Part shown: positions 1 to 64,000 of the stretch, in pieces | Layout of the letters: each line of letters opens with the position of its first letter | Position numbering within the stretch: position 1 is the stretch's first letter | Source: the human T2T-CHM13v2.0 reference genome, Homo sapiens | Direction of reading: 5' to 3' | NCBI GenBank assembly: GCA_009914755.4 | Contig: CP086569.2 | Location: 47,808,001 to 47,872,000 of the forward strand | DNA length: 64,000 bases | The notes under the pieces: generated by a model | The model's database searches: none | Seen by the model: only the letters and a program-made list of their open reading frames with translations | What the model was told of the DNA's origin: nothing | Program-made: the position numbers and the translations under genes

Positions 1-120
1 TTTTGGATTTTTAGTAGTGACAGCGTTTCACTGTATTGGCCAGGATGGTCTTGATCTCTTCACCTTGTGATCCCCTTGCCTTGGCCTCCAAATTTGCTGG
101 GATTACAGGCCTGAGCCAAG
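1..120 (-). mobile_element. Alu SINE, 5' portion truncated by window edge (unit 1)
   Basis: Reverse-complement Alu body ...ttttagtagtgacagcgtttcactgtattggccaggatggtcttgatctc...gctgggattacaggcctgagccaag. The Alu is primate-specific. Confidence 0.9.
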
Positions 121-685
121 ATCCATATTTTTTAAATGAAAAAAAATTTCAAAGGTACTCTGCTTGGTACAATAATCAAATGTATAAACTGAGGAATAAA
201 ACATAACCATGAAACCTACTTATAACTGCATATGGAAAATACAGAGGATAATTTTTTAAATAACATATTTTGAAAGCCTTAACTAGTAATTTGAAGAGTT
301 GGCATTTGAAAGGCCAGTATGAATATACCTTCAAAGCAGCAACACAGGTTCCCCATGAGAAAAAGCAAACTCAGGGAAAATAAAACCACAAAGGTTCAAT
401 CTCTTCTGACCTTTGAAAGACACAGCACAGACAGTGGTCCTTAGGACGAAGAGCAGGAGACCCCTAATTCCGTCACCATGGCGATAGGGCATAAACATTG
501 CTGGGTGAGGGCACAATCCACATTGTGAGGTCCAACTGCTGCCAGGAAGACAGGAGTGCTTTTACATAGACCGAAAGGTCATTGAAGGCTCAGAGTTTTG
601 TTTCAAGAACTGAATCCCAAGCCCACACGTTATTAGGCTGCGCTTCTTAAAACAAGCTATGAGATGGGAAAAAGGGCACCCACAA

Positions 686-2246
686 ACATACGTATACATT
701 ATGTATACAATAATATACAGTATCATATATATAATATATATAACCTATGTATAATATTGTTTTACATCCTGCATCTTATACTATATATATTGTATAAAAT
801 ATAATAATTGATAATATATAAGTTTTATATTTATATTATATGACATATATTATATATTATAATTTATGATATATATATTATATGTTATATATCATATATA
901 GAATATATTATACGGTTAATATACGTATTAAATATAAATTATATATTATATACATTATATATAATATATCTGTTATATATAATACCCATTATGCATAATA
1001 TATATATTATGTCTATGTTATATATAGTATAAAACAACATATAATAATATATAATTGTATATATAAAAGGTGACATATAATATATATTATATTTTATGAC
1101 ATATGTAATATATATTATATATTATATATAATACGTTGTATGTATAATACCTATATTAAATATATATGATATGACTATGTTATTAATTACATGTCACATG
1201 TGTTATATATTATATATTTTACATACAATATACCGGTTACATACAATATATACTATCTTACCTACAATGTATAATTTATTACATGTAAAATAAAGAATGC
1301 AGTATATTATGTATAATTTATAATATACAATATGTGGAATGTGATATATATAACATATAATATATGATATATGATATACACTATATGATATATAACATAC
1401 AATATATGATACCTAATATATATGGTATACAATATATATTTTATGATATGTATTCTATATGTTTTTTATTCTGTTATATATAACTATTTGAAATTATATA
1501 TAACTGTATAATATTTTATGTAAATATGTAATATAATATATATAACTATATAATATATTATATATAACTTTATATTATGTTATATATACTTTTATAACAT
1601 AATTTACATAAAATATCATAATATAATATGTATTATATTATTTCTTATTACATAATATATATTACATATCACCCAATATAAGTAACATACATAATATTAT
1701 AATATAGATTATATTATGTTATATTAAATATCATATATATCATGTATCATATATTCTATAATATATATTACACATTATATAATATGTATGTTGTCTATTA
1801 TGTGATATATATAACTATATATATAATTATATTATTATACATATAACTAGATAAACGTGTAATTCTACATATTTTCATTTATAATATATAGAATTATGTA
1901 ATCATATATAATTATTTATATTCTATAAAAAATTATATCATTATATAAATTATAATATATAAAAATTAAAATATGTACTTAAAACAGATATATTATATAT
2001 CATATATGATATAGTACCTTTGTTATATATCATAATACATATAAATGTGTATTATGTTATCTATAATTATATAATTTCGTATATAAGATGTATAATATGT
2101 ATTATATATTTTATATGCTATGTAATATATATAGTATATATAAGATGACACAGGATAAATATTATATACTATGACATATAAAATATAAGAGGTTATATGT
2201 TACATATAAGTCATACCACATAAGATGTAATATATATCATATATAA
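686..2246. repeat. AT-rich low-complexity block of unit 1 (~1.56 kb, TA/TATA/TATG-type degenerate)
   Basis: Strongly A+T-dominated sequence made of TA-rich words with many short AT palindromes (e.g. tatatcatatatgatata). It is homologous base-for-base to the blocks in the other units, so it is not a freely slipping pure microsatellite. Confidence 0.85.
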
Positions 2247-2540
2247 TTTTTTTGTAGACAGAGTCTTCTCCTGCTACACAGGGTGGAGTACAATGGCGCC
2301 ATCTTTGCTCACTGCAACATCTGCCTCACAGGTCCAAGCGATTGTCCTCCCTCAACCTCCCAGGTAGCTGGAACTACACCACACTGGGACTACAGCAGCT
2401 GCCACCATGCCTACCTAATTTTTTCGATTTTTAGTAGTGACAGCGTTTCACTGTATTGGCCAGGATGGTCTTGATCTCTTCACCTTGTGATCCCCTTGCC
2501 TTGGCCTCCAAGTTTGCTGGGATTACAGGCCTGAGCCAAG
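2247..2540 (-). mobile_element. Alu SINE, full length, S/J-like (unit 2)
   Basis: The element runs from a poly-T (reverse-complemented A-tail) to ...gattacaggcctgagccaag. It carries gtccaagcgattgtcc, which is the reverse complement of the AluS/J GAATCGCTTGAAC rather than the AluY GAATGGCGTGAAC. Most CpGs are decayed to TG/CA. There is a ~14 bp internal duplication (gggactacacc occurs twice). This copy belongs to the ttcgatttt / ggaactacacc / cagcagc variant subtype. Confidence 0.92.
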
Positions 2541-3105
2541 ATCCATATTTTTTAAATGAAAAAAAATTTCAAAGGTACTCTGCTTGGTACAATAATCAAA
2601 TGTATAAACTGAGGAATAAAACATAACCATGAAACCTACTTATAACTGCATATGGAAAATACAGAGGATAATTTTTTAAATAACATATTTTGAAAGCCTT
2701 AACTAGTAATTTGAAGAGTTGGCATTTGAAAGGCCAGTATGAATATACCTTCAAAGCAGCAACACAGGTTCCCCATGAGAAAAACAAACTCAGGGAAAAT
2801 AAAACCACAAAGGTTCAATCTCTTCTGACCTTTGAAAGACACAGCACAGACAGTGGTCCTTAGGACGAAGAGCAGGAGACCCCTAATTCCGTCACCATGG
2901 CGATAGGGCATAAACATTGCTGGGTGAGGGCACAATCCACATTGTGAGGTCCAACTGCTGCCAGGAAGACAGGAGTGCTTTTACATAGACCGAAAGGTCA
3001 TTGAAGGCTCAGAGTTTTGTTTCAAGAACTGAATCCCAAGCCCACACGTTATTAGGCTGCGCTTCTTAAAACAAGCTATGAGATGGGAAAAAGGGCACCC
3101 ACAAA
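2541..3105. other. Complex, non-repetitive ~565 bp segment of the unit (representative copy)
   Basis: This segment begins right after the Alu: atccatattttttaaatgaaaaaaaatttcaaaggtactctgc ... ccgtcaccatggcgatagggcataaacattgc ... cacacgttattaggctgcgcttcttaaaacaag ... gggcacccacaaacatacg. It has no simple-repeat character and retains several CpGs. The same segment lies in every unit at Alu_end+1 to Alu_end+565. Confidence 0.8.
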
Positions 3106-61122: not shown

Positions 61123-62678
61123 ACATACGTATACATTATGTATATAATAATATACAGTATCATATATATAATATATATAACCTATGTATAATATTGTTTT
61201 ACATCCTGCATCTTATGTTATATATATTGTATAAAATATAATAATTGATAATATATAAGTTTTATAATTATACAATATGACATATACTATATATTATAAT
61301 TTATGACATATATAATATATGTTATATGTCATATATAGAATATATTTTAGGGTTAATATACGTATTAAATATAAATTATACATTATATATATTATATATA
61401 TCTGTTATATATAATACCCATTATGCATAATATATATATTATGTCTATGTTATATATAGTATAAAACAACATATAATAATATATAATTGTATATATAAAA
61501 TGCGACATATAATATATATTATATTTTATAACATATGTAATATATATTATATATTATATATAATACGTTGTATGTATAATACCTATATTAAATATATATT
61601 ATATGACTATGTTATTAATTACATGTCACATGTGTTATATATTATATATTTTACATAGAATATACCGGTTACATACAATATACACTATGTTACCTATAAT
61701 GTATAATTTATTACATGTAAAATAAAGAATGCAATATATTATGTATAATTTATAATATACAATATGTGGAATGAGATATATATAACATATAATATATGAT
61801 ATATGATATACAGTATATGATATATAACATACAATATATGATTCCTAATATATATGGTATGCAATATATATTTTATGATATGTATTCTATATGTTTTATA
61901 TTCTGTTATATATAACTATTTGAAATTATATGTAACTGTATAATATTTTATGTAAATATGTAATATAATATATATAACTATATAATATATTATATATAAC
62001 TATATATTATGTTATATATACTTTTATAACATAATTTACATAAAATATCATAACATAATATATATTATATTATTTCATATTACATAATATATATTACATA
62101 TCACCCAATATAACTAACATACATAATATTATAATATAGATTATATTATGTTATATTAAATATCATATATATCATGTATCATATATTCTATAATATATAT
62201 TACACATTATATAATATGTATGTTGTCTATTATGTGATATATATAACTCTATATATAATTATATTTTTATACATATAACTAGATAAACATGTAATTCTAC
62301 ATATTTTCATTTATAATATGTAGAAGTATATAATCATATATAATTATTTATATTCTATAAAAAATTTTATCATTATATAAATTATAATATATAAAAATTA
62401 TAATATGTACTACAAATATATATATTATATATCATATATGATATAGTACCTTTGTTATATATCATAATACATATAAATGTGTATTATGTTATCTATAATT
62501 ATATAATTTCATATATAAGATGTATAATATGTATCATATATTATATATGTTATGTAATATATATAGTATATATAAGATGACACAGGATAAATATTATATA
62601 CTATGACATATAAAATATATGAGGTTATATGTTACATATAAGGCATAGCACATAACATGTAATATATATCATATATAA
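61123..62678. repeat. AT-rich low-complexity block (unit 26)
   Basis: Homolog of 686-2246. Confidence 0.85.
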
Positions 62679-62972
62679 TTTTTTTTTAGACAGAATCTTT
62701 TCCTGTTGCACAGGGTGGGGTACAATGGCGCCATCTTTGCTCACTGCAACTTCTGCCTCACGGGTCCAAGCGATGGTCCTCCCTCAGCCTCCCAGGTAGC
62801 TGGGACTACACCACACTGGGACTACACCAGCTGCCACCATGCCTAGCTAATTTTTTGGATTTTTAGTAGTGACAGCGTTTCACTGTATTGGCCAGGATGG
62901 TCTTGATCTCTTCACCTTGTGATCCCCTTGCCTTGGCCTCCAAATTTGCTGGGATTACAGGCCTGAGCCAAG
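62679..62972 (-). mobile_element. Alu SINE (unit 27)
   Basis: Reverse-complement Alu at the unit period. It carries the gggtggggtac variant. Confidence 0.9.
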
Positions 62973-63537
62973 ATCCATATTTTTTAAATGAAAAAAAATT
63001 TCAAAGGTACTCTGCTTGGTACAATAATCAAATGTATAAACTGAGGAATAAAACATACCCATGAAACCTACTTATAACTGCATATGGAAAATACAGAGGA
63101 TAATTTTTTAAATAACATATTTTGAAAGCCTTAACTAGTAATTTGAAGAGTTGGCATTTGAAAGGCCAGTATGAATATACCTTCAATGCAGCAACACAGG
63201 TTCCCCATGAGAAAAAACAAACACAGGGAAAATAAAAACACAAAGGTTCAATCTCTTCTGACCTTTGAAAGACACAGCACATACAGTGGTCCTTAGGACG
63301 AAGAGCAGGAGACCCCTAATTCCGTCACCATGGCGATAGGGCATAAACATTGCTGGGTGAGGGCACAATCCACATTGTGAGGTCCAACTGCTGCCAGGAA
63401 GACAGGAGTGCTTTTACATAGACCGAAAGGTCATTGAAGGCTCAGAGTTTTGTTTCAAGAACTGAATCCCAAGCCCACACGTTATTAGGCTGCGCTTCTT
63501 AAAACAAGTTATGAGATGGGAAAAAGGGCACCCACAA

Positions 63538-64000
63538 ACATACGTATACATTATGTATATAATAATATAGAGTGTCATATATATAATATATATAACCTAT
63601 GTATAATATTGTTTTACATCCTGCATCTTATGCTATATATATTGTATAAAATATAATAATTGATAATATATAAGTTTTATAATTATACAATATGACATAT
63701 AGTATATATTATAATTTATGACATATATAATATATGTTATATATCATATACAGAATATATTATACGGTTAATATACGTATTAAATATAAATTATACATTA
63801 TATATATTATATATAATATATCTGTTATATATAATACCCGTTATGCATAATATATATATTATGTCTATGTTATATATAGTATAAAACAACATATAATAAT
63901 ATATAATTGTATATATAAAATGCGACATATAATATATATTATATTTTATAACATATGTAATATATATTATATATTATATATAATACGTTGTATGTATAAT
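63538..64000. repeat. AT-rich low-complexity block (unit 27, truncated by window edge)
   Basis: Homolog of the first ~460 bp of 686-2246. Confidence 0.85.

What the first reader, a model, noticed from the sequence alone, without database searches (positions are those of the whole stretch)
1..64000. At least 64 kb of a composite Alu + unique + AT-rich macrosatellite that I cannot assign to a named family
Twenty-six complete ~2.42 kb units are visible, and the array runs off both window edges. The unit is not any classical satellite monomer. It is a TE fragment plus a complex segment plus a 1.5 kb AT-rich block, all amplified together. This is the composite-repeat class highlighted in telomere-to-telomere assemblies. 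Unit size and base composition do not fit the GC-rich macrosatellites D4Z4, DXZ4, RS447/USP17 or SST1 as I remember them. Arrays of this kind are usually copy-number polymorphic and poorly represented in older assemblies. I consider this the principal object in the window.
Basis: partly seen in the sequence, partly recalled or inferred. Interest (0 to 1): 0.6.

Follow-up and report, generated by a model that had tools for sequence, protein, structure and literature searches.

The report
Known human satellite DYZ2 / HSat1B
The whole window is an internal piece of HSat1B (classically DYZ2), a 2.4-kb Alu-containing AT-rich human satellite first described in 1984 and fully mapped on the Y chromosome and acrocentric short arms in 2023, so the repeat is real but not new.

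Summary
All 64 kb is one head-to-tail array with a 2,413-2,421 bp unit: 25 complete units plus two partial ones, running off both edges. Units are 96.4-100% identical to each other. Each has three parts: a 291-bp antisense 5'-truncated Alu, a 567-bp mixed segment, and a 1,554-bp block that is 86.6% AT. The claim that it belongs to no named family is wrong. It is HSat1B, also called DYZ2, RepeatMasker "HSATI", or the male-specific 2.47-kb satellite I unit of Frommer et al. 1984. The window consensus is 2,420 bp, the same as the published DYZ2 consensus. Sub-unit sizes, GC (24.5%), CpG density (1 per 144 bp), Alu divergence and the junction heptamer ACATACG all match published values. A published 40-nt Y-chromosome probe target, taken from the 1984 sequence, occurs once in every unit (27 sites, 23 exact, none expected by chance). 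Independent copies occur as human contaminants in 17 bacterial assemblies, mostly about 99.4% identical. A duplicon of at least 22.4 kb, with 12 mismatches and a two-unit indel, shows recent unequal exchange, as already described for Yq12. I could not tell whether the array lies on Yq12 or on an acrocentric short arm. Already known; low interest.

The parts
1..64000 (-). Internal segment of an HSat1B (DYZ2-type) tandem array: 25 complete units plus 2 partial units, open at both ends. The strand given is that of the Alu sense strand and of the published probe sequence.
2247..4665 (-). Representative complete unit (unit 1, 2,419 bp).
2247..2538 (-). Alu-derived sub-unit of unit 1, poly-T first on the + strand. 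It matches AluY positions 13-288, so it is 5'-truncated by 12 nt. Identity is 82.6%, with an internal insertion of about 15 nt. The same structure is present in every unit.
   Evidence: The weak mir-1268 match lies inside it. That mir-1268 is Alu-derived is my own knowledge.
2514..2553 (-). The 40-nt truncated-Alu/HSATI junction, identical to the target of the published 'Y-chrom' padlock probe, which was designed from the 1984 male-specific satellite I sequence. It recurs once per unit (27 sites).
2539..3105 (.). The 567-bp non-Alu, moderately GC-rich sub-unit (39% GC), which is the 'HSATI' portion of published descriptions.
   Evidence: The published size is 566 +/- 16 bp.
3106..3112 (+). Junction heptamer ACATACG between the HSATI and AT-rich parts. 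It is exact in 22 of 25 units and has one substitution in the other three.
   Evidence: It is described.
3113..4665 (.). AT-rich block of about 1,554 bp (86.6% AT). It has a weak internal 230-bp duplication and a sub-periodicity of about 21-22 nt. Nearly all the length variation between units comes from small indels here.
1..22437 (.). First copy of a recent duplicon of at least 22.4 kb. It runs off the left edge of the window.
26593..53863 (.). Second copy of the duplicon. 26593-43902 matches 1-17310 with 7 mismatches and no gaps. 48663-53863 matches 17237-22437 with 5 mismatches. The two blocks are interrupted by a 4,834-bp (two-unit) indel at about 43903-48662.

Best explanation
The window is an internal stretch of a human HSat1B satellite array, the family classically called DYZ2 on Yq12. 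It is non-coding constitutive heterochromatin. Inferred origin: a single ancestral locus held an old, 5'-truncated Alu fused on its head side to a roughly 567-bp sequence and on its tail side to a degenerate AT-rich tract. That whole 2.42-kb composite was then amplified head-to-tail. Every unit shares the same truncation point, the same internal Alu insertion and the same junctions, which indicates a single origin and not repeated Alu insertions. The array is maintained and homogenised by unequal sister-chromatid (or intrachromatid) exchange and gene conversion. The window shows this directly: a block of at least 22.4 kb was copied 11 units downstream very recently, and a two-unit gain or loss followed. 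No sequence-specific function is encoded, and there is no ORF and no Rfam RNA. Its likely role is as bulk, heavily methylated, late-evolving heterochromatin. Its copy number drifts under weak constraint; the literature reports a DYZ1:DYZ2 unit ratio of about 1:1 on the Y.
For: Each measured feature is followed by the published value. The consensus unit is 2,420 bp, against a published DYZ2 consensus and median of 2,420 bp. The Alu is 291 bp, 5'-truncated, with 17.4% mismatches plus 15 gap columns, against 290 +/- 2 bp, 5'-truncated and about 20% diverged. The HSATI part is 567 bp, against 566 +/- 16 bp. The AT-rich part is 86.6% AT, against >85%. GC is 24.5% and CpG density is 1 per 144 bp, against 24% and 1 per 150 bp. 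The heptamer ACATACG sits at the HSATI/AT-rich junction, as published. Unit length varies through small indels in the AT-rich block, as published. For direct sequence identity, the 40-nt target of the 'Y-chrom' padlock probe of PMC2212658 occurs once per unit. That target was taken from Frommer 1984, and the probe labelled only Yq. There are 27 sites, 23 of them exact, with 0 expected by chance. For independent copies, 17 short contigs in unrelated bacterial assemblies are 96.8-99.6% identical to the window consensus over their full length. This matches the reported HSat1B contamination of bacterial RefSeq. One metagenome contig shows the repeat abutting GGAAT-rich HSat3. For the single origin of the Alu, the junction and the internal insertion are invariant across units, and CpG positions are mutated far more often than other positions (22/46 against 26/230). 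For unequal exchange, the duplicon at an offset of 26,592 bp (11.0 units) has 7 mismatches in 17,310 bp, continues at an offset of 31,426 bp with 5 mismatches in 5,201 bp, and carries a two-unit indel. The literature reports iterative tandem duplications, sister-chromatid exchanges in Yq12 and unequal crossing-over. For the lack of coding or RNA genes, there is one low-complexity ORF of at least 90 aa in 64 kb and no Rfam hit at gathering thresholds.
Against: I had no human reference genome and no Dfam/RepeatMasker library, so full-length alignment to the curated HSATI/DYZ2 consensus was not done. Sequence identity rests on one published 40-mer, quantitative agreement with published descriptions, and unlabelled contaminant copies. 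Only 5 of 25 units are exactly 2,420 bp, whereas 93.7% of Yq12 units are reported to be. The array also carries about 10 near-fixed differences from the outside majority in 1,788 positions. It is therefore not a typical core Yq12 array. The amplification mechanism is inferred from sequence patterns and the literature, not observed directly. The absence of a sequence-specific function is a negative inference.
Confidence: 0.95

Rival explanations
1. It is the same family (HSat1B), but the array lies on an acrocentric short arm (chr13, 14, 15, 21 or 22) and not in Yq12. In that case 'DYZ2' in the strict locus sense would not apply. This is a sub-question of location within the best explanation, not a competitor to it.
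For: HSat1B totals 1.2 Mb on the acrocentrics. Acrocentric HSat1B is comparatively diverged, giving low-identity allelic alignments on chr15 and chr21. The window's units are heterogeneous in length, with only 20% at 2,420 bp against 93.7% on Yq12. The window also carries array-specific variants. Peripheral Yq12 and acrocentric copies are reported to resemble each other.
Against: By base count the Y holds 14.2 Mb against 1.2 Mb. [quoted passage not shown] The Alu is antisense on the window + strand, which would be compatible with the reported 96.2% 'antisense' orientation of Yq12 units. That is weak evidence, because the paper's orientation convention and the strand the window was taken from are both unknown. 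No flank is present in the window.
Confidence: 0.4
2. It is an orthologous HSat1B-like array from a non-human ape genome.
For: Ape T2T centromere/satellite annotations include an 'HSat1B' class, so the family is not strictly limited to humans.
Against: The window consensus is about 99.4% identical to copies found as laboratory contaminants in bacterial assemblies, which are presumably human. It has the exact published human consensus length and junction heptamer. It carries the exact human 40-nt probe target.
Confidence: 0.03
3. It is a previously undescribed composite macrosatellite.
For: I could not query a curated repeat library here.
Against: Every quantitative descriptor of DYZ2/HSat1B is matched, and a published DYZ2-derived 40-mer is present in every unit.
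Confidence: 0.01

Closest known systems
HSat1B = DYZ2 = RepeatMasker 'HSATI' (male-specific 2.47-kb satellite I unit, Frommer et al. 1984; T2T-Y, Rhie et al. 2023; Hallast et al. 2023)
   Same: The 2,420-bp consensus unit and the order of parts (AT-rich, Alu tail to truncated head, then HSATI). The sub-unit sizes of 291, 567 and about 1,554 bp. The 86.6% AT block, 24.5% GC and 1 CpG per 144 bp. The ACATACG junction and the exact 40-nt published probe target in every unit. Head-to-tail arrays with recent multi-unit duplications.
   Different: Nothing at family level. Compared with the bulk of Yq12, this array has more unit-length heterogeneity (2,413-2,421 bp) and about 0.5% array-specific substitutions. 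That points to a peripheral Yq12 block or an acrocentric array.
HSat1A ('SAR', 42-bp AT-rich satellite)
   Same: Both come from the classical AT-rich 'satellite I' density fraction, and both are very AT-rich.
   Different: HSat1A is a simple 42-bp repeat with no Alu. TRF found no 42-bp array in the window.
DYZ1 / HSat3A6 (about 3.5-3.6-kb Yq12 unit built from CATTC pentamers)
   Same: It is the partner satellite that alternates with DYZ2 on Yq12. It is also a kb-scale unit evolving by unequal exchange.
   Different: The sequence family, unit size (about 3.6 kb) and GC content (38%) all differ. The window contains no pentameric array. HSat3-like sequence was seen only in the flank of an unrelated metagenome contig.
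GC-rich macrosatellites (D4Z4, DXZ4, SST1/NBL2)
   Same: They are kb-scale tandem units and are copy-number polymorphic.
   Different: From my own knowledge, these are GC-rich, have other unit sizes, and some contain genes. The window unit is 24.5% GC and non-coding.

Membership tests
HSat1B / DYZ2 | Tandem unit of about 2.4-2.5 kb (published consensus and median 2,420 bp) | tested here: met
   Spacings are 2,413-2,421 bp. The majority-rule consensus is 2,420 bp.
HSat1B / DYZ2 | Tripartite unit: AT-rich tract, one 5'-truncated Alu (290 +/- 2 bp) and an HSATI segment (566 +/- 16 bp), with the Alu head next to HSATI | tested here: met
   The Alu is 291 bp, the HSATI part 567 bp and the AT-rich part 1,554 bp. 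The truncated Alu head abuts HSATI.
HSat1B / DYZ2 | Alu sub-unit is ancient, about 20% diverged from AluY, and of single origin | tested here: met
   Identity to AluY positions 13-288 is 82.6%, plus 15 gap columns. The score is 270, against at most 26 for shuffles. CpG positions are mutated at 22/46 against 26/230 for other positions. The truncation junction and internal insertion are invariant in all units. Caveat: the AluY consensus was supplied from memory.
HSat1B / DYZ2 | Extremely AT-rich region (>85% AT); overall about 24% GC and about 1 CpG per 150 bp | tested here: met
   The block is 86.6% AT. Overall GC is 24.5% with 1 CpG per 144 bp.
HSat1B / DYZ2 | Heptamer ACATACG at the HSATI/AT-rich junction of the 2,420-bp consensus | tested here: met
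   It is at consensus positions 860-866, exact in 22 of 25 units, with one substitution in the other three. It is described.
HSat1B / DYZ2 | Sequence identity to published DYZ2/satellite I sequence | tested here: met
   The 40-nt target of the Y-chrom padlock probe (PMC2212658, designed from Frommer 1984, Yq-specific signal) is found at 27 sites, one per unit. 23 are exact and 4 have one mismatch, with 0 expected by chance. Only 40 nt of published sequence could be retrieved.
HSat1B / DYZ2 | Full-length alignment to the curated Dfam/RepeatMasker HSATI consensus or to annotated hsat1B arrays in T2T-CHM13v2.0 | not testable with these tools
   No human genome or repeat library was available. The 1984 paper is not held.
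HSat1B / DYZ2 | Classical male-specific HaeIII fragment of about 2.1 kb | tested here: inconclusive
   A virtual HaeIII digest gives a main large fragment of 2,140-2,147 bp. The reference value of 2.1 kb is from my own memory, and I could not retrieve it from the literature.
DYZ2 in the strict sense (the Yq12 locus) | Located in Yq12, alternating with DYZ1 arrays | not testable with these tools
   The window has no flank. The family also occurs on acrocentric short arms, at 1.2 Mb against 14.2 Mb on the Y.
HSat1A (SAR) | 42-bp AT-rich tandem monomer with no Alu | tested here: not met
   TRF found only a weak 230-bp, 1.9-copy feature and no 42-bp array.
HSat3 / DYZ1 | Arrays derived from the (CATTC)n pentamer, with a unit of about 3.6 kb | tested here: not met
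   There is no pentameric array in the window, and the period is 2.42 kb.

The most novel reading that the evidence does not exclude
The array may represent a distinct, locally homogenised HSat1B sub-variant. Its marks would be about 10 near-fixed diagnostic substitutions and heterogeneous 2,413-2,421-bp units. Its location (a peripheral Yq12 block or a particular acrocentric short arm) and its 26.6-kb duplicon could then serve as a haplotype-specific marker of recent unequal exchange. That would still lie within the catalogued family.
Probability: 0.15. Interest if true: 0.15.

Novelty: already known. Interest (0 to 1): 0.08.

Why it matters
It matters little as a discovery. HSat1B/DYZ2 has been known since the 1980s, and dozens of Y chromosomes now show it at base resolution. 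The practical value is in annotation. A 64-kb window of this kind should be labelled HSat1B and masked, and it should not be flagged as a new composite repeat. The same sequence is also a common human contaminant of microbial assemblies. In one case seen here it was scaffolded into a bacterial chromosome. The recent duplicon of at least 22.4 kb with a two-unit indel is a small, clean example of the unequal-exchange dynamics already reported for this satellite.

Tried and rejected
- **Rfam:** The permissive scan of two units gave only sub-threshold matches to mir-1268 inside the Alu (31 and 23 bits against a gathering score of 83). The whole-window scan at curated thresholds found nothing. No structured-RNA reading is warranted.
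- **ORFs:** There is one ORF of at least 90 aa in six frames. Its product is Y/I/N-rich and low in complexity, so I treat it as chance. I ran no further search on it.
- **Inverted repeats in the AT-rich block:** There are many imperfect pairs, 70-78% complementary. That level is expected in TA-rich sequence, so I did not interpret them further. The literature does note that HSat1B is enriched in inverted and mirror repeats.
- **True 11-unit higher-order repeat:** Rejected. The third period (units 23-25) is only 96.7-97.5% identical to units 1-3 and 12-14. This is a single recent duplication, not a higher-order repeat.
- **Retrieving sequences and values from the literature:** The 1984 paper (PMC318713) is not held. 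The T2T-Y text lists no FISH primers. A search for the HaeIII 2.1-kb value returned nothing relevant.
- **Self-BLAST of the window:** One run failed on a parsing error. Another returned only the self hit. I replaced them with exact 400-mer diagonal analysis.
- **Yq12 versus acrocentric placement:** I tried to decide this from contaminant and metagenome copies. It was not decisive, because those copies carry no chromosome labels and may be collapsed consensus assemblies.

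
Full report
**Observation**

A 40-nt anchor from the proposed unit start recurs 26 times between 2247 and 62679, at spacings of 2,413-2,421 bp. The dominant 16-mer offsets are 2,413-2,421 bp. The 25 complete units are 96.4-100% identical to each other (mean 97.6%) and 97.9-99.1% identical to their own consensus. The left remainder (1-2246) and the right remainder (62679-64000) align ungapped to the consensus at 98.4% and 98.6%. 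The array therefore continues past both edges. I found no inverted copies. No unit carries an insertion.

**Anatomy of the unit**

The majority-rule consensus is 2,420 bp and has three parts plus a junction heptamer.

| Part | Consensus positions | Features |
|---|---|---|
| Alu | 2-292 | Antisense on the window + strand. Aligns to AluY positions 13-288, so it is 5'-truncated by 12 nt. 82.6% identity, with 15 gap columns from an internal insertion. Local score 270, against at most 26 for shuffles. |
| Mixed 'HSATI' segment | 293-859 (567 bp) | 39% GC. |
| Junction heptamer | 860-866 | ACATACG. |
| AT-rich block | 867-2420 (1,554 bp) | 86.6% AT. |

In the Alu, CpG positions are mutated at 22/46 and other positions at 26/230. 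Length differences between units come from small indels, nearly all in the AT-rich block. That block has a weak internal 230-bp duplication and a sub-periodicity of about 21-22 nt. Overall GC is 24.5%, with 1 CpG per 144 bp.

**Identity**

These figures match the published description of DYZ2/HSat1B point for point.

[quoted passage not shown] The family lies on Yq12 and, in smaller amounts, on the acrocentric short arms.
[quoted passage not shown] It reports 24% GC and 1 CpG per 150 bp. It also reports the heptamer ACATACG at the HSATI/AT-rich junction.
- Its supplement gives the Alu as 290 +/- 2 bp and HSATI as 566 +/- 16 bp. It attributes length variation mainly to the AT-rich part.
- Altemose et al. 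define HSat1B (formerly 'HSATI') as a composite of AT-rich sequence and Alu fragments. They cite Frommer et al. [quoted passage not shown]

**Direct sequence test**

PMC2212658 prints a padlock probe ('Y-chrom') whose 40-nt target was taken from the Frommer 1984 sequence. The probe labelled only the Y long arm. Its two arms, joined at the ligation point, read AAAAAATATGGATCTTGGCTCAGGCCTGTAATCCCAGCAA. This sequence spans the truncated-Alu/HSATI junction.

It occurs 27 times in the window, once per unit, on the minus strand. 23 sites are exact and 4 have one mismatch, against 0 expected by chance. It also occurs in 30 of the 37 related loci I fetched. That paper labels the repeat 'DYZ1'. By current nomenclature the 2.47-kb satellite I unit is DYZ2.

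**Independent copies**

An invariant 40-mer from the HSATI segment hit 17 stretches of DNA in assemblies of unrelated bacteria, including Mycobacterium, Bifidobacterium, Streptomyces and Azospirillum. 16 of these are short contigs of 0.6-2.5 kb. All 17 are 96.8-99.6% identical to the window consensus, mostly about 99.4%, and almost all match over their full length. One spans more than a unit without a gap. This is the HSat1B contamination of bacterial RefSeq reported by the T2T-Y authors.

The seventeenth hit lies inside a 5.16-Mb Nostocoides japonicum scaffold and is bracketed by N runs. A second anchor found 20 metagenome loci. One of these (L024) shows the repeat abutting sequence in which 31% of bases are GGAAT/ATTCC pentamers, which is HSat3. 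This is the arrangement known for DYZ2/DYZ1 on the Y and for HSat1B/HSat3 on chr15p.

**Dynamics inside the window**

- Window 1-17,310 equals 26,593-43,902 with 7 mismatches and no gaps. The offset is 26,592 bp, or 11.0 units.
- Window 17,237-22,437 equals 48,663-53,863 with 5 mismatches. The offset is 31,426 bp.

So a segment of at least 22.4 kb was duplicated in tandem. The two copies now differ by a 4,834-bp, two-unit gain or loss. Units 23-25 do not resemble units 1-3, so this is a single recent event and not a higher-order repeat.

The divergence is 12 mismatches in about 22.5 kb, or 5.3e-4. Using the rate of about 2e-7 per bp per generation quoted for the male-specific Y including Yq12, the duplication is of the order of a thousand generations old. 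This is a rough inference. Gene conversion and uncertainty about the locus both affect it. The pattern is what the literature attributes to unequal sister-chromatid exchange.

**Function**

There is no protein-coding capacity: I found one low-complexity ORF of at least 90 aa. No Rfam family reaches its threshold. The best-supported reading is non-coding constitutive heterochromatin. The literature reports that it is hypermethylated and enriched in inverted and mirror repeats. It also reports a DYZ1:DYZ2 unit ratio near 1:1 despite more than fivefold variation in length. The Alu is a passenger, captured once before the amplification. That the amplification happened by unequal exchange is inferred.

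**What remains open**

The chromosomal location is open. By base count the Y holds 14.2 Mb of HSat1B and the acrocentrics 1.2 Mb. However, this array is atypical of core Yq12. Only 5 of 25 units are exactly 2,420 bp, against a reported 93.7%. About 10 of 1,788 comparable positions carry near-fixed array-specific bases. [quoted passage not shown] I regard a peripheral Yq12 block and an acrocentric array as roughly equally likely. A non-human ape origin is unlikely, given the near-identity to presumably human contaminant copies and the exact human probe target.

**Verdict**

Novelty: already known. Interest: low.

Noticed in passing
L006:5897-6920 (NZ_HF570958.1, Nostocoides japonicum T1-X7, 5.16-Mb scaffold): A 1,024-bp HSat1B piece, 97.9% identical to the window consensus, sits inside a bacterial scaffold of 64-69% GC and is bracketed by N runs. 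It looks like a human contaminant contig that was scaffolded into a bacterial chromosome record.
   Followed up: partly
L001-L017: 17 stretches of DNA in assemblies of unrelated bacteria consist of this human satellite. 16 are short contigs, and almost all match over their full length, at 96.8-99.6% identity. This fits the published report that HSat1B is a major human contaminant of bacterial RefSeq.
   Followed up: yes
L024:1-4378 (metagenome contig BNJU01004413.1, 54.6 kb): The flank of an HSat1B copy has 31% of its bases in GGAAT/ATTCC pentamers, which is HSat3-like. This is an HSat1B/HSat3 junction in human-derived sequence within a metagenome assembly.
   Followed up: partly
window 22634-22978 (+): This is the only ORF of at least 90 aa in the window (114 aa). 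Its product is rich in Tyr, Ile and Asn and low in complexity. It lies in the AT-rich block of unit 9. I judge it a chance ORF.
   Followed up: yes
window 8041-8471 and the equivalent position in other units; 3203-3549 in unit 1: There is a weak internal 230-bp duplication (1.9 copies, about 75% match) and a sub-periodicity of about 21-22 nt inside the AT-rich block. This suggests the block descends from an older short-period AT-rich tandem repeat.
   Followed up: partly
window 2351-2417 and 4770-4836 (-): Sub-threshold Rfam matches to mir-1268 (23 and 31 bits, gathering score 83) fall inside the Alu sub-unit. I attribute them to the Alu-derived nature of that miRNA family, which is my own knowledge, and not to a miRNA gene.
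   Followed up: yes
consensus positions 17, 545, 560, 954, 1004, 1272, 2008, 2062, 2109, 2277 (add the unit start to convert to window coordinates): At these ten positions 21-23 of the 25 window units share a base that differs from the majority of independent copies found elsewhere. These array-specific variants could be used to locate the array in a reference assembly.
   Followed up: partly
PMC2212658 (literature): The paper calls the male-specific 2.47-kb satellite I repeat 'DYZ1' and also gives its size as 2.7 kb. By T2T-Y nomenclature the repeat it targets is DYZ2/HSat1B.
   Followed up: yes
window-wide virtual digest: HaeIII gives a main large fragment of 2,140-2,147 bp per unit. From memory, this is consistent with the classical 2.1-kb male-specific HaeIII band. 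There are only two KpnI sites in the window, 31,426 bp apart, and that spacing equals one of the duplicon offsets.
   Followed up: partly
L020 (VNIU01008303.1, 1,745 bp): This copy is only about 76-80% identical to the window unit and has many gaps. It may be a noisy long-read assembly or a truly diverged relative of the family.
   Followed up: no
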